Shown here one piece after another: positions 1,535 through 31,655 of a DNA stretch of 32,025 nucleotides (positions within the stretch are counted from its first letter, which is position 1; the number at the start of each line of letters is the position of its first letter). The notes under the pieces are model-generated. The model was not told the DNA's origin and did no database searches. It worked only from the letters and a program-made list of their open reading frames with translations. Source of the stretch: Chrysochromulina tobinii (taxonomy: Eukaryota); contig JWZX01003049.1 of assembly GCA_001275005.1 (NCBI GenBank), positions 1 through 32,025 of the forward strand, given 5' to 3'. Position numbers and translations under genes: made by a program.

Positions 1535-4500
1535 TCATGGAGCATGCACATCGCTCGGCTTCCGGCCCTTGCTCTCCGTCGTCGCCACCGTGCCCTCCTC
1601 ATTGCTTTCTCGCGCCTCGCGCAGCTGATCGCGCAGCCTCACGCGCTCCCAGTCGTTGGTCGATAGGATGGTCGACCCGTCCCCACTCCGCATGTGGTAC
1701 AGCCCACGGACGACTTCGTCAGCCTCGACGAGCCGCTTGATCTCGAGGCGCACGCAGCGGGAGAGGCTCACCTGCTCGCGCTTGAGCTCCTCCACGCGTG
1801 AGCGACTGTACAGCAGGCGCGCGAGCATGGGGCGCAGGTCTCGTAGGGCGATCATGCCCGACTCGACCGAGATGACTCCTATGTACCTGATGAGGGAGTC
1901 AATCAGGTGTCATCAGAGGTCGTCAATCTACTGTCGTAGGTCACGAAGAGGTCATCAAAAGGTCATCAAGAGCCCCTCATGGTTCATCCGTGGCTATAAT
2001 GTACGAGGCGAGAGGCGCGATCATGAGCAGCGTGATCACGTCGTGCGCCGACATCGAGGTGCACGCCAGCAGGAGCGCTGCATAAGAGAGCCAAACCTGA
2101 GGGACGGAGGCAATTAGATGTGTCATCAGAGGTCATCAAGAGGCACTCATGGTTCATCCGCCTAGGAGCACCATACAAGGGGCACCGCGACCTGATGAGG
2201 GAGGCAATCAGAGGCCATCAGAGGCCATCAGAGTCAATCAGAGGAGCGCCATACAAGGGGCACCGCGACCACCGCAAACTTGAGCTTCTCGGAGAGGAGC
2301 ACGTCGTGCCCCGTCCGTTTGACCGTTGAGGAGGCCAGAGCCACCCGCTGCCGCCATCTGGAGCACGCGAGGGCGGCGAGACGGATGCACTCAGAGGCAC
2401 TCAGAGGCACTCAGAGCCTATCAGAGCCAATCAGAGCCAATCAGAGCCACTCGGAACCAATCAGAGCCAATCAGAGTTCATCAGAGCCAATCAGAGCCCA
2501 TCAGAGCCAATCAGAGCCAATCAGAGCCCATCAGAGCCCATCAGAGCTCTTCAGAGCCAATCAGAGCCCATCAGAGCCCATAACAGTTCATCAGAGCCAA
2601 TCTCACTTTGACCACGCGAGGGCGGCGAGGCCCACGGGCGCGTTGAGGATGATCGAGGGCACCGACGCGATCATGAGCATCACGAACATGTGTCCTATGG
2701 TGAAGAGCGTCGCACCCACCGGAGCACGCTCGAGCGTTGGCACCTGCGAGTCACGCAGCCCGAGCCGCCGCAGCTCCTGGTCGTACCTGAGGAGGGAGGC
2801 AATTAGGTGTCATCAGAGGTCATTAAGAGGCAATCAGCTCCTGGTCGTACCGGCGCAGCCTTTGCATGAGCTCGGCCAGCTCGCGCTGACGAAGCAGCGC
2901 CTTGAGCTCGCGCAGCTCGGTCGCCACGTCACTCGCCTCGCTCGAGCCGCCGTCGCCCACGGCGGCGGCAGCGACGCCGTGGGCAGCCGGAGCGCCGCCG
3001 CTGTTGCCGCCGTTGCCGCCGCCGTTGCCGCCGCCGTTGCCGCCGTTGCCGCCGCCGTTGCCGCCGCCGTTGCCGCCGTTGCCGCCGCCGTTGCCGCCGT
3101 CGAGTTGTCGGAGGAGTCGTCGGATGCCGAAGGCAAAGCGGCGGTCAAGGTCCTGGCGCACGGCCGATTCAAGCTTGCCCGACATGCCCGGACCGCACCA
3201 GAGCCGGCGTACCACGTGGACCAGCTGCAGCTCCTCAAAGGACGAGACGGGCACGATCACGTCCCGCATGGCTCGCTCGATGCGGGCGAGCAGCGCCGTG
3301 CATGCGCGCTGCCGACGCTCGCCACCATGCGCGTGCTCCGCCTTCTCGGCCTTGGAGGCCAGGATGGGCGGCCCCACATGCACAGTCACCTTGGCGGAAC
3401 GGAACACATGCCCGCGGAAGTAGGACAGCCCGACGGGTACGATGGGCACCTGAAGCTGCGCACTGAGGGCGAGGAGCGCCACGCCCGGCTTGAGCTCCAG
3501 CAGGTCGGTGCGGTCGTGCGAGCCGCCCTCTGGGAAGATGCCTAGGCACGCGCCCCTGTCGAGCGCCTTGACCACGTCGGGAAACACCTTGTCATAGTCG
3601 CCACGGGGCAGCACGCGGTATGCGCCGCTTGCGGGCAGCGTCCAGCCAGCGTCGCCGCACGCGTGTTCATGGCGTGTGCCCAAGGCACCGTGTTGCTCAA
3701 CAAGACGCTCATATGGAGGCAAGACGGGCGAAGATGTAGGCAAACTGGCCAAGGGCGCCGGAGGCAAGACGGGCGACGCGGTTGGCGAGCTGGCGCAGGG
3801 TGGCTGCGCGAGGCGCACAAAGCATACTGCGTTGCTCTCGATCGCCGTCACGCGCCAGACCCAAGTGAGCGTCGGCCTGCGCCCGTCGACGAAACTCAGC
3901 TTGTCCCCACACCCAAGCTCCGTGCAGAAGCGGCAAGCCTCGCTGCCAACGAGCCGATAGAGATCCGCACGTGGCTCCTCGGGCTGCCCGTCAGCGGCGG
4001 CATCGCCGCCTGTGGTGCGGCCGCCCTCAGTGGGCTCGGTGGTCTCGCGCGAGGTGGCGGCGGCGGGCTCGGCGCGCAGCTGCAGCAAGGCGCCCGAACC
4101 TGCGAAGGCAACATCTTGCGGGCGCGTGACCGGCACAGCCGCCATCGCTCGCGCAAAAAAGCCGATGATCGGGTGTGTGTACGACTTGCGTGCGATGAGG
4201 AAGCTGATGCGCCGCTGCGGGCACGCACACATGACGCACATGCCGTCGATGAACTGGTTGAAATGATTGGCGACCAGGATGGCTGGCCCGTGCTGCGGGA
4301 TGTTCTCCATGCCGATGACATCGATGCGGCTGATGAAGATGGAGAGCATCGAGTTGAAGAACACACGGCCGGAGTAGAAGACGAGGCTCTGGAGGTCTTG
4401 TAGCACGGCCAACACGAGAAAACAAACAAAGGCCCATCCGAATGCCACGCGGCCCCACTCGGCCAAGCCCGCAAGCGTGCACAAGCGCTTCACCGGGTTG

Positions 4501-4778
4501 AGCGTGTCGAACGAGAGCATGATGAGCACGACGAGGATGAAGAGGTGCATCGTAGTACTCGTCGTTGAGCCGAGCACCTGGCTGCTTGGACGAGGGCGCG
4601 GAAAGGTGAGCTCGTCCTCCTCCTCCTCCTCTGGAACTTTCGGCTCAGCCATTCCAGGCACCTCCACCGGCTCCGGAATATTCGGCTCAGCCGTTCCAGG
4701 CACCTCCACTGGCGGCAGGCTTAACGAAGGTTTGTGCGGTGGCTTTGGCTCGCTCCTTGGCGGGCCAGCCCAGTCCAT
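1535..4778 (-). CDS. Glycerol-3-phosphate/DHAP O-acyltransferase, fungal Gpt2/Sct1 type; exons 4778-2851, 2786-2607, 2357-2270, 2191-2177, 2096-2005, 1886-1535 (884 aa)
   Basis: PlsC motifs ANHFNQFIDG (HX5D), VTRPQD, GIFPEGGSHD, IVPVGLSY. Removing five GT-AG introns gives one frame: ...RRYDQELRRLGLRDSQV...LNAPVGLAALAWSKWRQRVALASS...HDVLLSEKLKFAVVAVPLVWLSY...SYIGVISVESGMIALRDLRP. Exon lengths sum to 2655 nt. Confidence 0.9.
1887..2004 (-). mobile_element. Introner-like intron A (118 nt) in acyltransferase
   Basis: Sense: GTACAT...TGATGACC-type repeats...TGATTGACTCCCTCATCAG; next exon also begins GTACAT; removal restores frame (A-S-Y-I-G). Confidence 0.8.
2097..2176 (-). mobile_element. Introner-like intron B (80 nt)
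   Basis: Sense: GTATGG...TAATTGCCTCCGTCCCTCAG; next exon begins GTTTGG; removal gives P-L-V-W-L-S-Y and removes an in-frame TAG. Confidence 0.8.
2192..2269 (-). mobile_element. Introner-like intron C (78 nt) with 29-nt target duplication
   Basis: Direct repeat 2164-2192 / 2242-2270 (1 mismatch); CTGATTGACT/CTGATGGCCT units; ends TGATTGCCTCCCTCATCAG. Confidence 0.8.
2358..2606 (-). mobile_element. Intron D (249 nt): about 22 copies of a 10-nt repeat (sense TGATTGGCTC-like); acceptor region duplicated from the upstream exon
   Basis: Donor AA|GTGAGA, acceptor CTCCAG|ATGG; 17-nt direct repeat 2364-2380 / 2613-2629, offset 249 = intron length; (tcagagccaa)n array at about 2388-2600. Confidence 0.85.
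2787..2850 (-). mobile_element. Introner-like intron E (64 nt) with 17-nt perfect target duplication
   Basis: cagctcctggtcgtacc at 2771-2787 and 2835-2851; sense ends TAATTGCCTCCCTCCTCAG; the unspliced ORF stops inside it (TAA 2823-2825). Confidence 0.88.
2995..3099 (-). repeat. Coding minisatellite encoding a Gly/Asn tract (GGN/GGGN)n
   Basis: Alternating gccgccgtt and gccgccgccgtt units, in frame in the acyltransferase. Confidence 0.9.
4639..4709 (-). repeat. 42-nt-period coding duplication (PVEVPGxAEP x2)
   Basis: ttcggctcagcc[a/g]ttccaggcacctccac at 4639 and 4681. Confidence 0.85.
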
Positions 4779-5008: not shown

Positions 5009-7318
5009 ATGCTCATGACAGACTACCAGCAGCCCACGGGCAGGCTCAACCTAAGATTCGCGGACAAGGTCGCCGACGGCCACCACCAATGGCGCAGCCA
5101 GTCGCAGCCAAATGTTCACCTCAAGGAGCGCTGTGGGGGCGGCGACCTGAACAGCCGAAGTGGCTGCGGCATGTGGAAGCCCAAGGGCGCGCCGTGCCCG
5201 CATTGCCAGCGTACCGCCAAGCAGTTCGGCCTCATTGACACGCAGCAGTCGACGCTGACGCCTATGGCAAAGCTGAGCGCAAGGCTCGGCAAACCCGTCC
5301 ACCTCACGATGCCGAGTGGAGCGCTCATGAAGAGCTCCTCGGTGTTCGCGCTGAGGACGACTGAGGAGCTTCTCAGCGGACGCCGGTACGACAGCACCAC
5401 GGCGCACCTGAGCCACGAGGAGCCGCCGACGCGACGCCCCTCGTCGGCCCAGTCGCTCGCGCCCGGCGGCAACAGTACAGGCCGCCGAAGCCCAGCCGAA
5501 GCTTCAGCGGTGTCGATCTCACCATCGTCTCGATCCGCGCCGATCTTCGAGGACGAGGCGAAGGAGATGAAGACCCTCGCCACCGCCTTGCGAGAGGCGG
5601 CCATGTGTCGCACGGAGTGTGCGCACGCCCTCGACCACCTCGCCTCCGACTTTGAGCGCGAGTTCCGCCCGGGCATTCCATCGCGCCCCGCAGCGAGCTC
5701 TCTCGTCGTCAAGAGTAGCACGATCGCCTCGCGCCTGTCGACGGCGTGCTTCAGCCTCGAGGCGGCCGCGGCGACGTGCCTGCAGATCTCGCGCATCGGC
5801 GCCATCGAGCGCGAGTCGATGATCGACGCGCTGCAGGACGACGCCATCCAATTCGATCATAGGATCGACGAGGCGAAGGCGGCGATGCGTCGCGTCGAGA
5901 TGAGCAAGCTGGACGAGCGCGCGGTGTACGACAAGCAGGCGCGCGCCACGGCGCACGCGATGGCCATCGAGCTCGCGCGCGCAGAGCACAAGATTGACAC
6001 ACTGCGCGCCGAGCTGAGCGCAAGCCGGATCCTCATGGGCAGCGCGCTCGAAGAGGAGCGCGCCAAGGTGGTCGCGCATCTGCGCGCGCAAGCGATCAAG
6101 AGGATGCTCAAGATCGAGCTGGCGCGTAGTTGGACGTCGTGGATGGACACGTACAAGCGAGGCCGGAGGCTCAAACGGCGTGCGCTGCTGCGATTTCGTC
6201 AGGGCGAGCTCAACAAGGCACTGAGCACCTGGGCTCAGGTACGTCCGCCCCCCTTTAGCCCTATACCGCCCCCCGAGAGCCCCCCGATGAGCCCTGAGGA
6301 CCTCGTTGATGACCCTTGATGACACCATCGGTGCCCCTCCGCACGGCCCAGGTACACCCCCCGATGAGCCGCATACGGCGCGCGATCGAGCCATACAAGC
6401 AGCAGATCGCCGACCTGGAGCGCGACCTACGCAAGGAGAAGGCTGCGCATGAGATGACGCGCACGATGCTCGAGGCGCGCGCGTTGACCACGGAGGAGGA
6501 GATGCATCGGCGGCGTGAGGCTGAGAAGCACCATCGCATGCAGCACCTGCTGCAGGTAGCGGTGCGCCGGACGCTCAAGATGGACCTCGCTCGCGGTTGG
6601 ACTCAGTGGCACGACGTGACCAAGCATACCAAGATCAATCGCATGCGCGCGCTCGCCCGCTTCCGCTCGCAGGGGCTGTTCAAGGCGCTGCGCACGTGGC
6701 GCCTCGTGTGCCCGCCGCGACACCTGACGCCCGAGAGCCTGATCATCTGCCAGGAGGCGCTCGAGCGCGAGCGCGCTGCGCACGCCAAGTGCCGCGCGCA
6801 GCTGGTCAAGCTGCGCGAAAAGTGGGAGACGAAGTTCGAAAAGTATCGCGAGGCCGTGCAGACGGCGGCGACGCTCCAGTCTGTGGTGCGTGAGCTGCAG
6901 GCGGTGCTCAAGGAGGCCCTCGACGCCTCCTCGTGGTCTTCCTGCCGGATGGTCCTCTACCACGAGCACCTGCGCTACGTCCCCTCGGCCGCGACGCATG
7001 GGCGCGGCGGCAGGTGGCGTGCAGGCCTCGCGCGCAAGAAAAGGGCGAGATTGATTACGAGATTGATTGCATGCTGTTTGCATGCTGTTTGCATGCTGAT
7101 TGCATGCTGATGGCCTCCTCATCAGGTGGCGTGCAGCCTCGCGCAAGAAGGGCGAGATAGACTCGCGCCTCTCCAACGGCTGGTCCGTCGGGCGCCTCGT
7201 CGACGGCTCCCATCTCGAAAAGGTGCTCACGTGGCCAAGCTCCTTGCGCGACACGCCGTTCGTGCGGAGCGAAGACCTGGTGCCATTCCCCCTGGAGCAC
7301 GAGCGCGCGATGGAGTGA
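5009..7318 (+). CDS. Coiled-coil protein with Trp-containing Sfi1-like repeats; exons 5009-6238, 6352-7013, 7126-7318
   Basis: ORFs 4889, 6316 and 7100 join in frame through GT-AG introns. Duplicated module AIKRMLKIELARSWTSW...LNKALSTW / AVRRTLKMDLARGWTQW...LFKALRTW. Start codon uncertain. Confidence 0.65.
6239..6351 (+). other. Intron F (113 nt), probably an eroded member of the duplication-intron family
   Basis: CAG|GTACGT...CCCAG|GTACAC; ccccccgatgagcc occurs in the intron (6280-6293) and next exon (6357-6370); degenerate TGATGACC units. Confidence 0.75.
7014..7125 (+). mobile_element. Introner-like intron G (112 nt) with stuttered 33/38-nt duplication
   Basis: Intron 7014-7051 copies exon 7126-7158 with +G, +CG, +AA; (ttgcatgctg)-type repeats; ends TGATGGCCTCCTCATCAG. 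Confidence 0.88.
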
Positions 7319-7449
7319 GTGAATAAGCGCGTGAATATTGTTTGAGATTGCGTATGTGTTTGTTTGCGGTGGGAGTTGGTACGAACTACATCCACAGTCA
7401 TTGGCTCTGCATCAGCAGCACGCCAGCCGTGGCATCAGCAGACCCTAAG

Positions 7450-10370
7450 CAGACCCAAGCTAGGTAATTACCTCCACCGTAGCTCTAGCTGGAGCCACGA
7501 ACATTAAGCTGCCAGGCCAAATGACATTGCTTGCCACTGAGCTCCTCCTAACCACCAGCTCAGTTGGAAAAGCAGAAGCATCAGCTTGCATGGTTACGTC
7601 GTGCTCCTACGGCCTCTCTTACCTCTCCGCTTCAACCAACAGTCGGTGCAGTTCCTTTGCCACTTTACGCTCTGCTACCGCGTACCATCTTCATCAGACG
7701 CCCTGGCGAGTGCTCTGCGAGAAGGCGGAAGCAACTTTCGACCGCCTGCTTCTGGTCATCTGGTGCGTGGTGGACAAAACCGAGCTTGTGATTCGCATCC
7801 TCAAGAAGTTTGAGCCTGATGATTCGCTCATCCACACGTTCGTGAAGAACAGCTCAAGAACAGCTCGAAGATCGTGAAGAACAGCGGCGAGCTACTCTTC
7901 GAACTGCCGCGATACGACTTATGCTTCGAGCTCTCCAGTGACAACCAACAGCTGTGGTCGAAGAACTTAATTGGCTTCTCCCTCACAGCAAGACTCAGCA
8001 GCTCAAGACGCTCCACGGCTTCTAGCAGTATCTCGTACTTGAGTCGGGCAAGCAGAAGATCCTCATTGTTCCGCGGGGCGACGTGGTGAGAGAAGGTGAG
8101 CGGGTCTTCATCGACGGATCGAGCGCGTGCGACGCCAAGCGTGAAGTCACTGAAGTGCATAGGTATGACGTGCACGAGCGTTTCAAGAGTCTCGAGTCGC
8201 CAGCTGGTCTACAGCTGGTCGGCACTCGGTACTAGCGCGCCTGCTGCTGGCCGCGCTTTCTGCTGCTACTGGCACGGTCGACCATATGCAGGCTCACAGC
8301 AGACCGGCGGAGAGCCGGAGAGTCGGCTATCGAGCTAGTGCGCCAGTGCTGGGTGAATCGTCCGCTCGATTGCGAAGAGAGCAAGCACAGCTCCAGTCCG
8401 TCTCCAACTTTAGCCAGCTCGTGCCCGCCCTTCCTTTGATCTGCCACGAGTTGTACATGAGCGCGCGTGAGATGAGTTTTCTACACGCCCCAGATGCTGA
8501 TCCCCCAGAGAAGCTGGCATTCAACGCGGACGGCGGACCCCGCGACGGAGTATACACACAGCGGAAGCAGGCTATGCAACTCAACGCGCACGAGATGTTG
8601 CGCCCTGACGAGGAAACGCGCTCGCTCGCGCACTTGGTGAGACCGCGCTCGCTAAAGAACCTCGAGCGCAATCTTGACGTCCTGCCTCCGAGTCGGAGGA
8701 GGCCACAGCAAGGTGATCCAAGAGACCGAGGAGACTTTGAAGGCGATGATCACGGAGTCGTCTACGGACTCTTGACCCATCGCTGCCTTTCCCCCTAGTT
8801 GATGTCGCAGACTTTGAAAGCACACAGCCCGGCAAGCACATGTTCACGGAGCTCCGCGATAGCTGGGGGGCGCACCAAAAGATGCTCTCAATCCAGCTTG
8901 CAGCGAAGCACACCATCCTGGCGGATCTCAAGAGACAGCGAGAGACGATTAGCGTCGTCTCGTGCATTCGGGTGCAATGTCCTGCCAACTTCAACATGCG
9001 CCGTGCCGCAAACCGTGTCCGGAATGCAAACCTGGTCCCGCACGTGACACTTCGTGACCTCGCCCGAGTATCGCCCGAGCAGCGCTCCACTCAGCCGAGC
9101 TGCTGCGCTTCAACCCGTTCCTCTCGGTATAGGGGCAGAAGCACAGTAAGGCACAGCTGCACGAGTGGGTGCTTGACTGGCTCAAGTACTGCGTGCTCGA
9201 AGACCAACTAGAGCGCATGCATTCGAGCGCCTTGGCAGCGGCCTCTGCCTCCGCCGCTGCCGCCTTCCAGGAGCTCAAGCGTGAGCTCGAAGAGATCGGG
9301 CGCGAATGGGAGGTGCATGTACACCCGGAGTGAGGAGTGGCTGGTCTTCAAAGTTGAGCAGTAGCTCAAGATCCGGCGGGTGCAGTACATGACAAGGGCA
9401 ATCCCTGTGCCGCTACTCAGCTCAGCATGGGCGAGGGCAAGACGCGCGTCATCCTCCCGATGCTTCAGCTGCACCTGCGCGGCCGGGCAAACTCGTGAGG
9501 ATGCACTTCCTCACTATTCCTCACAAAGCTCCTCGTCGAGGCTTACTTCTTCCTCCACCGTGGACACCTCACCGCCAGCCTGATGAATCGGCGGCTGTGC
9601 CTGCTGCCCTTCCACCGCAAGGTGAAGCTCACGATCAATGACGTGCTACGGATGTACCAAGGGCTGCTGCGCTGCGAGCGAAACGGCGGCGCTGTTTTCT
9701 TCACATCAGAGCACCGTCTTTCACTGCAGCTCAAGGGCCACGAGCTGCGCCTCTCTGAGAAGGGCAGCGGGGCTAATGCGGACAGCTTTGAGCGGATCCG
9801 CGCCAAGCTTGACCAGCTGCACAGCCTGCCGTACCACGATGTGAGAGCGACGAGGAGCTACGCCACCACACAGTTCCAGCTAATCTACGCATGGGGTAAG
9901 CTGCAAGCCTTTGCCGGCGGGGTCCGAGCGATGGATCGCAGCAGAGGCGCTCCTACGCGAAATCCAGCACAATCCTGAGGCGACGATAATCCTCGCCACG
10001 CCCGACGTCTCGAAGCGGCAGAAGCGGCAGCTAAGCGGCAGCCACTCTTCTGGCGCTTGGCCCGCAGGCGCAGGAGGCTGAGTACACGCTGTGGCTGTCC
10101 TCCGCTTCGCAGATGATTAACGATGAGCAGAGGCAGGCGCTCGACTCGGTTGACAAGCTCGATCTGACGAGCGAGCCGCAGCAGCTAGACATGCTCTTTA
10201 CCCTGTGCAAGTACAATATGGCTGCGGTCAACTTCTGGCTCAATAGCTGTGTGCTTCCGCGTGAAACAATGCAGTTCCCCAACCGCCTGTGGCCAACGCG
10301 TTCAACTTGACTGACAATCCCTCAGGCGAGGTGATCGGCTTCTCGGGCACCAAGGACAACAATCCTCGAG
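7450..10370 (+). pseudogene. Heavily disrupted DUF3638/DUF3645-family giant P-loop protein fragment
   Basis: Collinear motifs across shifting frames: EWLVFKVEQ*LKIRRVQY (about 9335-9388), QLSMGEGKTRVILPML (about 9418-9465), LLPFHRKVKL, EHRLSLQLK, ESDEEL...QLIYAWG, VNFWLNSCVLPRETMQFP, IGFSGTKDN (about 10334-10360). Multiple stops and frameshifts; boundaries approximate. Confidence 0.78.
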
Positions 10371-10455
10371 CGAACAGCTGTGTGTCTCAGACCAGCACGA
10401 TCGAGGGGAGGGTGGGTCGGAGGGTGGGAGGCAGCGTGTGAGACATATGGGCTAG

Positions 10456-23418: not shown

Positions 23419-26400
23419 TCAGATGAGCTTCGCCTCGGCGGCGCTGAGCTTCGCCTGCAGCTCTTCCTTTTCGTTGACGAGCTGTAGGATCTGCTCCGAT
23501 TGCGCCTGCAGCATCATGCGCATTTGCCCCTCATCCTCCGCGTCGATGGTGCCCGGCCCCCGCCCGAGCACGCGCCCCCCGGTGGCGGAACGCACCCATG
23601 GCGCCGCGTCGCGGACTCCATGGCGTGTTTCGCGCGCCTTGGCAAGCTTCACCTCCAGAGCCGTCATCTTCTCAAGCTCGGCGACCCGCTGGACCTTCGC
23701 CTTGCGCTGCAGCCGTTGCTGCTCCGCGAGCTCGTGCCCCAAGGCCACCTTCTCGGCGAGCGCCTGCGCCGCCTCCATCTTGGCACGGCGGAGCTCCGCC
23801 GTGAGCGCCTCCACCTGATGAGGGAGGCCATCAGCATGCACTCAGAGACGCACTCGGACGCAATCAGGCGGAGCGCCGCCGTGAGCGCGGCCGTGAGCGC
23901 CTCCACCCGCGCCAATGCGTGGAGGGTCGAGCGCAGAGGATCCGCGGAGAGGCGATCAGCCGCCACGCCGCTGCCGCCCACCGCTGCGCCGACACCCTGG
24001 GCGCCGCTGCCCTCGGCACGAGCGGACTTGGCGCGAAAGGCAGCGGCGTCGGACTTGAGCTGCTCGATCTCGTCTTGCAGCGCGTCGCGCTGCTGACGGC
24101 AGCGCACAAAATCCGCTTTGGCGCTCAGCAGTGCCATCTCCGCATCCTGCTCGGCGTCTGAACCGTGCGTGGACCCTGGCTTCGCCCAACTCAGCGCGCT
24201 CGCCACGGCGCTACCGTGCGTGGACCCTGGCTTCGCCCAACTCAGCGCGCTCGCCACGGCGCTGGCGGCACTCGCCTCGCCGACGTCAGCGCCGCTCCCC
24301 GGCGCGCGGTCCGCCCAATACGGCGCGCGGTCTGCCTGCAGCCGCCCAGCTGGGATGCGTGCCGCCTCGGCCGCCTCGACCGCCACCATCGCCTCCGCCT
24401 CGGTCAGCTTCCGATGCGCCATCGCCACCTCGCGTTCAGTGGGCCGACCGAACAGTTGGCTCAGGGCGTAGATGCCGCCGGCGCCCGTGCCGGCGCTGAT
24501 GGCCACCGGCACGCGCACGGACGCCGCGCCGCCCGCTGCGCTGCCCTCCGCGCCGTGGTGGGCACTTGCATGCGCGCCCCCCGCCGCCTTACTGGCTGCG
24601 CCGTCCGCCACGCCGCCCGCCGCGCCGCCCGCCTCGCCGCCGTCCGATACGTCCACGGGGTGCGCTGAGACGGGGGCGGCACCCAGTACAGCGCGGTAGG
24701 CGTGCGCGGCCACCTGCGGTGCACCGCTCTTGAGGTACATGTTCGCTGTGGAAAGGAGGAGGGAGACGCGAGGATGCACCATGAAGGCGGCCTCGTACGC
24801 GCCACGTGCGCGCGCTGCATCGCCCACCTCGTTCGCCGCTTTCCCCTCGGCGATCAGCTGATCAGCGAGCTGAGAGGCCGCGCTGCCCCCAATCCCGCCT
24901 CCCCGCCCGTCAACGCCGCCGTCGCGGGCCGCAAGTTGGGCAAGCCTTGCGTGCGCTGCCGCGTGCTCGAGAAGGGATTGGACCCGTGATTGCCCATGCT
25001 CGGCCGTCGCCGCCGCGCGGCTGGCCAACTCATATGCACAGCGCTCGAGGTAGAGGCTCGCCCGTGCGGACGCTTCCTGCTCGGCCGCCACGAGCGTCGC
25101 CAGCTGACCGCGCTGCAGTTGCATGCGGTCAGCTAGCGCCGCATGCTCCGCCGTGAGCCGACCGAGCTCGGCGCGCGCCGTGCTGAGCGCCTGCTCGGCA
25201 CGTTCTCGCGCCGCGAGCTCCTCCTCGCGCCTGGCGATCGCCGCGGCGGCCATCTCCTGCGCCGGCTTGATGGCGGTCTCCGCACGGCTCTGCGCCGCGA
25301 TGGCTGCGGCGAGGTCTGTCTTCTCATCAGCGTTGGCCGTAGCCGAGGCCGCGGCCGAGGCCTCGAGGCAGCTGAGCGCCTCACGGGTCGCCTCGAGCGC
25401 GTCCTTAGCCTGCTCGGCCTCACGCATCGCCCTCGCCACCGCCGCGCGCGCCGCCGCAGCTTCGGCGAGAGCCGCGGCTGCCTCCGCCTCGGCGCTGGCC
25501 GTGTGCTTTGCCTTGAGCTCCGCCTCGAGCTCAAGCAGACCGAGCTCGGCAATGCAAGCTCTCCTCTCGTACTCGAGACGGTCGGCGCGCCTCGAGGCTT
25601 CGAAGTTCGCCTCCTGCATGCTCGCGAGCTGCTTCTCGAGCACCACGGTTCGCGCCTCCGCCGCCACCAGCGCCGTCGCCGTCGCGGCCGCCTCCATTTT
25701 AGGATCGATTCCTTTTTTAGGCTCGCTTCCCTTTTTAGGATCGCTTCCACCGAGCGTCTCCGTCCCCGCACGTCCGTAGTAGCTTTGCGAGTTCCCTGGC
25801 GTGTACTTATACACTGTCTTGCCTTCCTCCGTCTCCTCTTTGAGCTTGCCTTCGGCGAGGAGCTGCTCGAGCAACTTATGCCGAGCCAGCTGCCCCCCGG
25901 TACGTGAACTCGTTCTTCAGCTCGAGGTGCCTGGGCATCAGAGCACCGAGCACGCGCCCGGCGCCGCGCTTGCCACGCTGCTGCTCCTCGATCATCGCCT
26001 CGAGCTCCTCCTCCGTGTCCAAGTCGCGGTCGTCCTCCACGTCCGACGCCGCGTCCGACTCGCCCGACTCGCCTCCGGCCGCTTGATGTGAGGCCGCTTG
26101 ATGTGCCACTCGGCCTGCGCCACCGCCGCCGCGCCGGCCGGCGCTGGCTCGCGGGAAACTCTCGCCCGCCTCCGACCCGACGTCGGACAAGTCGGCGTCG
26201 GTGTCGTCGTCGGCCGTGGGCCAACCTGACGACTCCGCCTCTGACCCGATGGACGACAAGCTGTCGCTCCGACCCGAGTCGCTGCCCGAGTCGCTCGATG
26301 CGAGCGGCTTGCCGCTGGAGCCGTGCTTGTCGTAGTTGCGCAGCCAGCGCGAAGAGAGCGTGAGCACGAGGTCGCCCACGGGCACGCCGTCGTGCAGGAG

Positions 26401-28877: not shown

Positions 28878-31655
28878 TCACTTGGCGGCCTTGCCTTTCT
28901 TGGCGGCCGCAGGCTTGGTTCCCATCTCGGGCTGTGTGGGGCGCGCCACGTCCCGCAGCCGTACGGCGAGCCCGCCGCGCTCGCCAACGAGCTCGACCGC
29001 ATGGCGCTGGCCCGCCTCTTCAAAGTATTCCTCACCCACCTTGATGAAGCAGTCCACCTTGAGCAACCCGACCTTAAACTTCTCTACCTCCTCCTTGCGG
29101 AACTCATGCTTCTTCCGGAGCGCCTCGCTGAGCGCCTCGTTGAAGAGCTCGGTACCAGAAGCTGGTCGCTCACGCCCAACATTCGTCCACTTGGTTCCGA
29201 GCGCGGGCGGCTCGTTGGCCAGGTGGAGCAGGCAATAAAAGGCCTGCGCAATCGAGATGCTCTCGGGCTTGGCGGGCGGCGGCATCCGCTCGGGCAGCCG
29301 ATGCAAAGCCTGCTGGAAGTCCACCACGCGCGTCGGCGAGCCCGCACCGTCGCCCTGTAGCAGGGTCCACAGATCCTCCTTGAGCTTGCCCACATCCACC
29401 ACTGTCGAGCGGCGTGCGGTGGGCCAATCCTTGGAGCTCACCTGATGAGGGGATTACTCAGAGGTCATCAGTGCCAATCAGAGGTCATCGGGGGCCAATC
29501 CTTGGAGCTCACCTGATGAGGGGATTACTCAGAGGTCATCAGTGCCAATCAGAGGTCATCAGGGCCAATCCTTGGAGCTCACCGCGATCTGCGCCGGCGG
29601 GACGATGGGCGCGGGCGCAGGGGCGCGAGGGCCGGCGCCGGCGCCACCATCCTGCTCGTCCCCGCCACCGATATCCCATCCGCCCTCCTCGTCGGGCCAG
29701 TTGCCGTCGTCGCCGTCGTCGCCCCCGTACGCGTCGACGCCATCGGCTGCGCCCTTGCTCGCTGCACCGGGCTCGGCGGAAGAAGAGGGTCCGTTGGCGA
29801 GGGCCTGGGAGCCGTCGGCGTCCGGGAACAGGCTCTCGGTCCGGCGCTTGGCCTGACGCTGCTGGCGCTGCACGTGCCGCTCGTACGCGATGCGCTTCGA
29901 CGGGCGCTCGAAGAGCGTCTCGAGCGCCGCCATCTGCACTTGGAAGTCGCGCTTGAGCAGTGTCTCAGCCGCCTTGGCCTTGGAGAGCATCGTCTTGGTC
30001 AAGATGGTCGTCCCCTTTGTGTCGAGCGCCGCCGCGTCCTCCAGCTCAAGTACGAGCGCCGCCGCGTTCGAAAAGTCGACCGTGACCGGCTCCTTGGCCT
30101 TGCGCGCCCCCGCACCCGCGCCGGCCGCGCCTCCCGCAGCAGCCGCGCCCACACGGTTCCGGCGTCTCCTCGCTAGCTGCTCCGCCATGCTGCTGCCGCC
30201 CTGGTACCCGTTGCCCTCGAGCCCGCCCCCGTCGAGCTCGAGCTCGTCGCCGGCGTCGTCGATGAGCGATGCGGGGCCCTCGGCATCGACGAGGCCGATG
30301 AGCCCCCCCTGGGACTGCGCCACGCGCTCGTCGGGCTCGTCGGCAGCTCCGGGTCCGTCGTCGCCCCAGCCGTCGGCGCCGTCGTCGGCGAACTCATGAG
30401 CACCAGGGCTCGACAGCGCTGGGGGTGCAACCTCGGGCGCGGCGGCCAGCTCGGGCTCCAGCTCGGGCCCCGGCTCTGGCTCTGGCTCCGGCTCGGGCTC
30501 CGGCTCGGGCTCGAGCTCGAGCTCGAGCTCCGCCTCCGGCTCCTCCTCGCCGTCGTCGGGCTCGCCGTCGGGCCGCCGCTCCGCCCAATACTGTCGGAAG
30601 GCTGTCGCCACCCGGAGCTCCTTTGTCACCGTGGGCAGCAGGCCGACCAGAGCGGCCGCGGGCAGCGGCGCCGGCGGCGCGGCGACCTGCGCCTGAGCCC
30701 GCGCCGCCGCACTCGCCACCTCCGCGTCGCGCGCGTCGAGGACGAGCGTGAGGCCGTCGGCGCCGAGGTCGAGGCTGTGTACCATCAGGCCGCGCGCGCC
30801 CTTGATGCCGTACAGCGCGGAGGTGCGGTAGAAGAACGGGTCGGCGTCGGCGCCGAGTTCGTGCTTATCCATGTTTAGCTTCGACGGGTCGGTCTCCAGG
30901 TACGCGGTCGGGTTCTTGCGCTTGGGCTTCTTGGGCTTCTTGGGCTTCACGATCTTGGACTGGACGAAGTTGAACAGTTCCGTCGCCTTGGCGTCGCTCA
31001 GGTTCAGCTGCGTCGCGATCTCGTGCATGTCGGCGGGACTGGCCGTCTTCTTAGCCTCGGCCATGAGCGCGGTCATCTCTTCCACGACCGACGCCTCCGC
31101 CCACTCGGGCGCGCCCTCGAGGTCGACTGCGCCAGCCTTGGCGCCCTCCTCCTCCTCCTCCTCGTCCGCCGGGTCGTCCACCTTGGCGCCCGGCCGGTCG
31201 ATCATGCGGCGGAGCCGCTCCTGCTGCATCTCGAGCGCATCGACACGCGCCGCGATGATCCGGGAGCCCGCATCGAGCATCATCGCCCCCTTTTGGAAGA
31301 TCTCGATGGTACCGCCGGTGGAGTTGCGGTCCATGTCGCGGATCATCCGGTCCATGTCGTCGATGTTGTACGCATTCAGGAAGGCATTCTTCTTGTTCAC
31401 CTTGTTGTCCATGAAGCGCTTCATCGCGTCGCCGTAACCCTCTAGGCGTCGCTCCTGGCGACCTGGCGTTTCCTTGAGCGGTGACTTCACCTTGGCGAGC
31501 TGCTTCTGCACCGCCGCCTGCGCGGCCTCCTGGCGCTCGTTCTCGTCATCGTTCTCGTCCAGGCCGACGTCACCAGGCAGGAACCCGCCGGACAGGCGGC
31601 GCTTGCCGCCCGACGAGTTGCGCCGGGGGGCGATCACCGGCAGCGGAGAGCTCAT
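28878..31655 (-). CDS. NCAPH: Condensin I kleisin subunit CAP-H (Barren/Cnd2/Brn1); exons 31655-29583, 29441-28878
   Basis: DNKVNKKNAF, FQKGAMMLDAGSRIIAARVD, DPFFYRTSA...GARGL, VDVGKLKEDLW, ISIAQAFYCLLHLANE. Confidence 0.9.
29442..29582 (-). mobile_element. Tandem twin introner-like introns (29513-29582 and 29442-29512) with no exon between
   Basis: 22-nt gggccaatccttggagctcacc present three times (29421, 29492, 29562); each unit in sense is GTGAGC...TAATCCCCTCATCAG. Confidence 0.88.

What the first reader, a model, noticed from the sequence alone, without database searches (positions are those of the whole stretch)
29421..29583. Twin introns with a zero-length exon in CAP-H (recursive-splicing-like AG|GT junction)
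Seen: two nearly identical 70/71-nt units abut as ...CATCAG|GTGAGC..., and the true exon also begins GTGAGC, a strong donor. Removing only one unit leaves stops or a frameshift in an essential gene. Inference: either recursive splicing or skipping of the inner acceptor must occur. The unit probably doubled by unequal recombination between the 22-nt duplications or by re-insertion at the same site, so these introns may be able to amplify or excise precisely.
Basis: partly seen in the sequence, partly recalled or inferred. Interest (0 to 1): 0.78.

Follow-up and report, generated by a model that had tools for sequence, protein, structure and literature searches.

The report
Repeat-flanked intron doubled end to end
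A condensin gene of what is probably a freshwater alga carries a 70-base intron twice in a row with no exon between, in this window and in two other alleles; it was likely doubled by slippage between the short repeats that flank it and is likely cut out in two steps, though no RNA data show the route.

Summary
The twin is real. Two intron-like units (70 and 71 nt) abut at CAG|GTGAGC in CAP-H, and only removal of both restores the 878-aa frame. All 6 of 6 metagenome contigs carry a twin: four match the window and may share its source, two are different alleles. One lake RNA-library contig holds a single unit. The unit belongs to an intron type common here, whose 5' end copies the start of the next exon (4 of 7 other window introns clearly). 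The inner unit starts with the exon's version of the repeat, which points to slippage or unequal exchange, not re-insertion, and probably to more than one doubling. Whichever splice sites pair first, what remains is finished or an ordinary one-unit intron, which may explain why doubling is tolerated. Two-step removal is inferred: no contig shows any spliced junction, and 141 nt is a normal intron length here. The scan noted this intron family before on another piece of this genome, and abutting introns in other genomes, but not this twin. Verdict: new variant of known kinds, moderate interest.

The parts
29583..31655 (-). CAP-H (condensin kleisin) exon 1
   Evidence: ORF; Pfam Cnd2 E 7.1e-25
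29513..29582 (-). Intron unit 1, 70 nt: 21-nt copy of the exon-2 start (supplies the donor) plus a repeat module ending in CAG
29442..29512 (-). Intron unit 2, 71 nt; same module, junction to the module differs (CC for T)
29510..29515 (-). Inner CAG|GTG junction (zero-length exon position, between 29513 and 29512)
   Evidence: present in 6 of 6 loci; its use in splicing is not shown
29562..29582 (-). Direct repeat copy 1 (intron 5' end); donor matches the consensus at 5 of 9 positions
   Evidence: reads EWP in 4 of 4 members of a protein cluster
29492..29512 (-). Direct repeat copy 2; donor matches the consensus at 7 of 9 positions
29421..29441 (-). Direct repeat copy 3, the first 7 codons of exon 2
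   Evidence: reads DWP in 8 of 8 cluster members seen that include this end
29528..29532 (-). Predicted branch point CTGAG of unit 1 (-20 to -16)
   Evidence: same register as CTGAT/CTAAT in 4 of 6 sister introns printed; inferred, not mapped
29457..29461 (-). Predicted branch point CTGAG of unit 2
   Evidence: inferred
28878..29441 (-). CAP-H exon 2 (C-terminal kleisin domain plus an unnamed domain)
   Evidence: Pfam Cnd2 E 2.5e-9
23815..23906 (-). Sister intron, 92 nt, 17-nt exact copy of the next exon's start
2787..2850 (-). Sister intron, 64 nt, 16-nt copy
2192..2269 (-). Sister intron, 78 nt; its 28-nt copy spans a predicted 15-nt micro-exon and the first 13 nt of the next intron
7014..7125 (+). 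Sister intron, 112 nt, gapped copy of about 33 nt

Best explanation
A 70-nt intron flanked by a 21-nt direct repeat stands twice, head to tail, in CAP-H; it was likely doubled by slippage or unequal exchange between its own repeats and is likely removed in two ordinary splicing steps through a zero-length exon. Step 1 (inferred): the intron arose when a short repeat module carrying a branch point and CAG entered the exon and about 21 nt of target DNA beginning with GT were duplicated; the upstream copy became the donor. Step 2 (inferred from allele pattern): mispairing of the intron copy with the exon copy doubled the unit, probably more than once. Step 3 (shown by translation): both units must go. 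Step 4 (inferred): the spliceosome defines the smallest intron first. Inner donor to outer acceptor (the inner donor is the better match) or outer donor to inner acceptor each leaves an ordinary one-unit intron with an intact donor, which is then removed. Every first pairing converges on the same mRNA, so the doubling would be nearly neutral. My odds: origin by repeat-mediated doubling about 0.85, two steps as the main route about 0.6.
For: Twin in 6 of 6 loci, with three distinct alleles and total insert lengths of 140, 141 and 142 nt, so length is not held at 3n. Within each haplotype both acceptors share the same base at -9 (C,C in the window; T,T in L003 and L006), and unit 2 always starts with the exon's T at +15: this fits separate doublings of one-unit alleles, or homogenisation. 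A one-unit form exists as a 524-nt contig in run X17 (skips 71). Run X12 has a 100-nt contig over the inner junction in a third arrangement, a G-type unit preceded by an acceptor (read from difference tables, the contig itself was not seen). Intron family: 4 of 7 other window introns and one intron seen in both L005 and L006 begin with an 11-24-nt exact copy of the next exon (scores 16-25). Of 120 random AG|GT sites 115 scored 8 or less; four of the five higher ones are these introns. One copy includes the start of a neighbouring intron, so the duplication was made from genomic DNA. Each unit has donor, branch-like motif in the usual register and CAG. Smallest-intron-first splicing is reported for fungal complex introns (PMC7138796, passages).
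Against: No contig from 5 of 5 RNA runs laid shows a spliced or fully spliced CAP-H junction. The X17 one-unit contig fits a one-unit allele (DNA carry-over or unspliced RNA) as well as a half-spliced intermediate, and its unit matches neither unit of the window nor of L003/L006. Other introns here are 64-249 nt, so 141 nt needs no second step. The few allele differences miss the inner junction, but they are too few to show selection on it. In animals the exon junction complex represses reconstituted donors (PMC6224609, abstract), which could block one of the two-step orders; untested in this organism. Depth in X1 and X10 is lower than a uniform twin predicts. No zero-unit allele, the expected reciprocal product, was seen.
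Confidence: 0.55

Rival explanations
1. The twin is spliced as one 141-nt intron; the inner AG|GT is a passive by-product of a neutral duplication and is skipped, or its use ends in decay of the transcript.
For: 141 nt lies within the local intron range of 64-249 nt. One-step removal gives the 878-aa frame. No sign of selection on the inner sites. In Lipomyces starkeyi a complex intron is removed by either route (PMC7138796, passages).
Against: The inner acceptor is identical to the outer one and comes first; the inner donor matches the consensus better than the outer one (7 vs 5 of 9). Folding does not hide the inner sites more than the outer ones (unpaired 0.37 vs 0.33 for the acceptors).
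Confidence: 0.3
2. The twin is a minority or unstable form: cells of the source carry a mix of one- and two-unit alleles, and function rests largely on the one-unit allele.
For: Junction-contig depth is 0.35 and 0.57 of flank depth; implied twin share 0.65 and 0.84. A one-unit contig exists in X17.
Against: 6 of 6 assemblies chose the twin, two of them with their own alleles. Both readings need a local depth dip (0.53, 0.68), so depth is a poor guide here.
Confidence: 0.1
3. A second, independent insertion of the same mobile element at the same site made unit 2.
For: The family looks like insertions with target duplication; parallel gains at one site are common in Daphnia (PMC4202315, passages).
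Against: Sister introns have different modules and copy lengths, while the two units share the module and, within each haplotype, the -9 base.
Confidence: 0.03
4. Assembly artefact: two one-unit haplotypes joined in tandem.
For: Low junction depth; X1 and X10 may be the window's source.
Against: Junction contig with 0 differences in 2 of 2 DNA runs; twins with other variants in L003 and L006.
Confidence: 0.02

Closest known systems
Recursive splicing at zero-length exons: S. pombe SPNCRNA.445 intron, 336 nt (bioRxiv 10.1101/226894, passages); Drosophila ratchet points (PMC8605326, search listing only)
   Same: An acceptor directly followed by a donor inside one intervening sequence.
   Different: There the intermediate ends were detected and the sites are conserved across species. 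Here the sequence is 141 nt, made of two near-identical whole introns, varies among alleles, and its stepwise use is not shown.
Introners that carry the 3' splice site and take the 5' site from the target-site duplication: Symbiodinium microadriaticum, Polarella classes 4/5 (4 nt) and 6/8/10 (8 nt) (PMC9860276, passages; bioRxiv 10.1101/2020.10.14.339549, part 1 of 4)
   Same: Donor supplied by the duplicated target, acceptor carried by the insert.
   Different: Their duplications are fixed at 4 or 8 nt, with inverted ends reported for the Symbiodinium elements. Here the copy is variable, 16-33 nt, and the body is a variable array of 10-11-nt words. The Chrysochromulina sp. example in PMC9860276 is the opposite geometry (carries the 5' site, 4-bp duplication).
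Daphnia pulex new introns from staggered double-strand breaks (PMC4202315, passages)
   Same: A direct repeat of adjacent exon sequence at the far end of the intron; alleles differ within populations.
   Different: Repeats are 4-12 bp; no tandem doubling of whole introns appeared in the passages read ('tandem' occurs 0 times).
Fungal stwintrons, including Lipomyces [D6,7] with abutting donors (PMC7138796 and PMC8469720, passages)
   Same: Complex intervening sequence of two U2 units; one- or two-step removal.
   Different: In stwintrons the inner intron interrupts or abuts a splice signal of the outer one and must go first; here the units are end to end and either order works on paper.

Membership tests
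Recursive splicing / zero-length exon | Acceptor AG immediately followed by a donor inside the intervening sequence | tested here: met
Recursive splicing / zero-length exon | First step regenerates a usable donor | tested here: met
   Both units begin with the same 14 nt or more, so the regenerated donor equals the original; a sequence argument only
Recursive splicing / zero-length exon | Intermediate or short lariats detected in RNA | tested here: inconclusive
   One one-unit contig in X17 cannot be told from a one-unit allele; no other joint in 5 RNA runs
Recursive splicing / zero-length exon | Inner site conserved by selection | tested here: inconclusive
   Intact in three twin alleles, but they differ at only a few positions
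Introner with donor from target-site duplication | Target duplication supplies the donor; insert carries the acceptor | tested here: met
   21 nt here; 4 of 7 other window introns clearly, 3 of 7 weak or decayed
Introner with donor from target-site duplication | Fixed short duplication length (4-9 nt), as for DNA transposons | tested here: not met
   16, 17, 21, 24, 28 and about 33 nt
Introner with donor from target-site duplication | Near-identical copies end to end at many loci | tested here: not met
   Within the window the modules share words and the 3' end but not their whole sequence; no whole genome held, so a genome-wide family is not excluded
Introner with donor from target-site duplication | Intron-free allele or ortholog showing one copy of the target | tested here: inconclusive
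   No zero-unit allele in 6 loci; no close ortholog found
Stwintron (strict sense) | Inner intron interrupts donor, branch point or acceptor of the outer intron | tested here: not met
   Units abut end to end
Condensin kleisin CAP-H / Cnd2 | N- and C-terminal Cnd2 domains | tested here: met
   the Tyr seen in two homologues and yeast Brn1 just downstream of the junction is Thr here under all three splice options aligned

The most novel reading that the evidence does not exclude
This alga has an intron class, made by a DNA-level mechanism with long variable target duplications, whose flanking repeats make each intron a copy-number unit (0, 1, 2 or more). Recursive splice sites then arise again and again by simple slippage, segregate in wild populations and are used at once, giving a direct evolutionary origin for zero-length exons and a route to precise intron loss without reverse transcription.
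Probability: 0.3. Interest if true: 0.78.

Novelty: new variant of a known kind. Interest (0 to 1): 0.52.

Why it matters
How recursive splice sites originate, and how introns are lost precisely, are open questions. Here a potential recursive site appears to arise in one mutational step, in a gene that is essential in other eukaryotes (established knowledge, not tested here), with one- and two-unit forms available for comparison. That makes three questions testable with a 300-nt RT-PCR and lariat sequencing: whether short-intron spliceosomes use regenerated donors, whether exon-junction-complex protection applies, and whether repeat-flanked introns are gained and lost by recombination. Gene finders that do not splice here cut the gene in two (696- and 187-aa database proteins).

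Tried and rejected
No whole genome is held, so no genome-wide count of twins was possible. RNA: X13's loose end at 29433 looks like library adaptor (recognised from memory), and X13 has no cover at 29434-29688; X14 and X15 do not bridge the site. Gaps in contig cover are no finding. Three protein searches found no close ortholog. The profile search was dominated by a different domain. Alignment to two distant CAP-H proteins does not choose between acceptors 29442 and 29430 (scores 83 vs 86 and 83 vs 77); 33 donor-acceptor pairs of 40 nt or more keep the frame, and I prefer 29582-29442 on signal quality and the family pattern. The protein atlas did not answer. Module patterns found nothing in viral or prokaryote collections. 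No Rfam match at E up to 1. The units are not more folded than shuffles. An intron circle as the source of the X12 100-nt contig was considered and cannot be excluded. In one search the script picked a wrong donor for two of the three weak introns; they are counted as misses.

Full report
What is there. On the minus strand a CAP-H gene (Pfam Cnd2 in both exons) is interrupted after codon 691 by 141 nt made of two near-identical units, 29582-29513 and 29512-29442. Each unit is a 21-nt copy of the start of exon 2, beginning GTGAGC, followed by a 49-50-nt module with two 20-nt repeats, a branch-like CTGAG at -20 to -16 and CAG. Removing either unit alone gives a stop after 698 or 705 aa; removing both gives 878 aa. 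I take it for a freshwater haptophyte, probably Chrysochromulina, from recall of its intron repeats, the freshwater labels of the runs and an earlier scan note.

Is it real? In 2 of 2 DNA runs laid, a 62-nt contig covers 29460-29521 with no difference. It joins the unit-2-specific bases to the upstream acceptor, though with only 9 letters beyond the AG|GT, and these runs may be the window's source. All 6 of 6 loci from the metagenome scan span a whole twin. L001, L002, L004 and L005 are identical to the window over the junction and the 788- and 535-nt flanks compared, so they are not independent. L003 and L006 differ from the window by 4 and 6 substitutions in those flanks and from each other by 4. 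Their twins are 142 and 140 nt. One result runs against a uniform twin in the source: junction depth is 0.35 and 0.57 of flank depth, and the shared repeat 0.88 and 1.25 rather than 2.

Copy number. A 524-nt contig from lake RNA run X17 spans 29218-29812 and lacks 71 nt, leaving one unit with G at +15. It may be a one-unit allele (DNA carry-over or unspliced RNA) or a half-spliced product. As no fully spliced contig accompanies it, I lean to an allele. Run X12 holds a 100-nt contig across the inner junction in which a G-type unit follows an acceptor, an arrangement absent from the six loci (read from difference tables only). No zero-unit form was seen.

The unit is one of a family. Of 7 other window introns examined, 4 begin with a clear copy of the next exon (16, 17, 28 and about 33 nt) and 3 show a weak or decayed copy; an intron seen in both L005 and L006 has a perfect 24-nt copy. 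Of 120 random AG|GT sites, 115 scored 8 or less; four of the five higher ones are these introns and the fifth most likely lies in a module. Removing the five introns predicted in the gene at 4778 to about 1560 gives 884 aa, and keeping any one stops it early. One intron's 28-nt copy includes a predicted 15-nt micro-exon and 13 nt of the next intron, so the duplication used genomic DNA rather than spliced mRNA. The scan noted this family earlier on another piece of this genome (e1-2577349); I had seen the pattern before that look-up (note). How the module is inserted (break repair with a copied template, or target-primed copying of intron RNA) is not settled by anything here.

How it doubled. 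In L003 and L006 unit 1 has G at +15 while unit 2 has the exon's T, as expected if unit 2's start derives from the exon copy. The exon copy reads DWP in 8 of 8 database proteins seen that include it, the intron copy EWP in 4 of 4. Both acceptors read C at -9 in the window and T in L003 and L006, and the unit-2 junctions differ between the two haplotypes. Separate doublings of different one-unit alleles explain this most simply; one doubling followed by gene conversion is the alternative. Re-insertion is unlikely, since sister introns have different modules.

How it is spliced (inferred). Three first pairings exist. Outer donor to outer acceptor finishes the job. Either short pairing leaves an ordinary one-unit intron with an intact donor. 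All routes converge if splicing goes on, which would make the doubling nearly neutral. For two steps: both units have full signals, the inner donor is the better match (7 vs 5 of 9), and smallest-intron-first selection is described in Lipomyces (PMC7138796, passages). For one step: local introns run from 64 to 249 nt, and the exon junction complex represses regenerated donors in animals (PMC6224609, abstract and outline). The third GTGAGC, at the exon start, has no acceptor with a CTRA motif downstream by a simple scan (one search printed none). RNA contigs from 5 runs show no spliced junction. I put two steps at about 0.6.

Relation to what is known. Zero-length exons are established, including in a 336-nt S. 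pombe intron (bioRxiv 10.1101/226894, passages). Introners that take their donor from a target duplication are known with 4- and 8-nt duplications (PMC9860276, passages; bioRxiv 10.1101/2020.10.14.339549, part 1 of 4); PMC12130899 does not mention Chrysochromulina or haptophytes in its main text. Daphnia introns have 4-12-bp flanking repeats (PMC4202315, passages). Hypoxylaceae sister stwintrons lack duplications (PMC8469720, passages). The C. tobin genome paper mentions introns once and suggests haploidy (PMC4580454, passages); whether it applies to this organism is not established. Nine searches listed no paper on whole-intron tandem doubling with allele variation, or on 16-33-nt duplications in haptophyte introns. 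The library lacks most subscription journals, I read listings only for most hits, and I opened no supplements, which may list this family. The scan has notes on abutting mini-introns in other genomes, unchecked by me.

Verdict. It works like a miniature recursive site but is not shown to be one. New variant of known kinds, interest 0.52.

Noticed in passing
window 2097-2269, minus: Two module introns separated by a predicted 15-nt micro-exon that begins with GT; using that GT as donor also keeps the frame (879 vs 884 aa), a second possible zero-length-exon site.
   Followed up: partly
window 2358-2606, minus: Mirror-type intron of 249 nt: it starts with the repeat module and its 3' end copies about 17 nt of the upstream exon's end.
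   Followed up: partly
window about 29000-29213, minus (exon 2 residues 77-147): CAP-H carries, after its kleisin C-terminus, a domain without a Pfam match that recurs, often repeated, in most of the 150 listed hits of 653.
   Followed up: no
window 29421-29441, minus: The Tyr found in two homologues and yeast Brn1 before the A-K/R motif is Thr here; a 15-nt insertion of module-like sequence into the exon is possible but untested.
   Followed up: partly
window 28844: All 4 runs laid show one extra A here, downstream of the stop: probably an error in the window's assembly.
   Followed up: no
window 24162-24263: Exact 51-nt tandem duplication (17 codons), apparently in coding sequence.
   Followed up: no
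L005 2092-2261 and L006 991-1139: The same intron with a perfect 24-nt exon copy in both alleles, while its repeat module differs in length (170 vs 149 nt) and in its 3' end.
   Followed up: partly
window 23904-23909 and L005 about 14066: The base before the donor of the 23906 intron differs between the window (G) and L005 (A), giving CAG|GT in L005.
   Followed up: no
window 7400-10400: A stretch that by eye looks like a degenerate gene with many stops and frameshifts.
   Followed up: no
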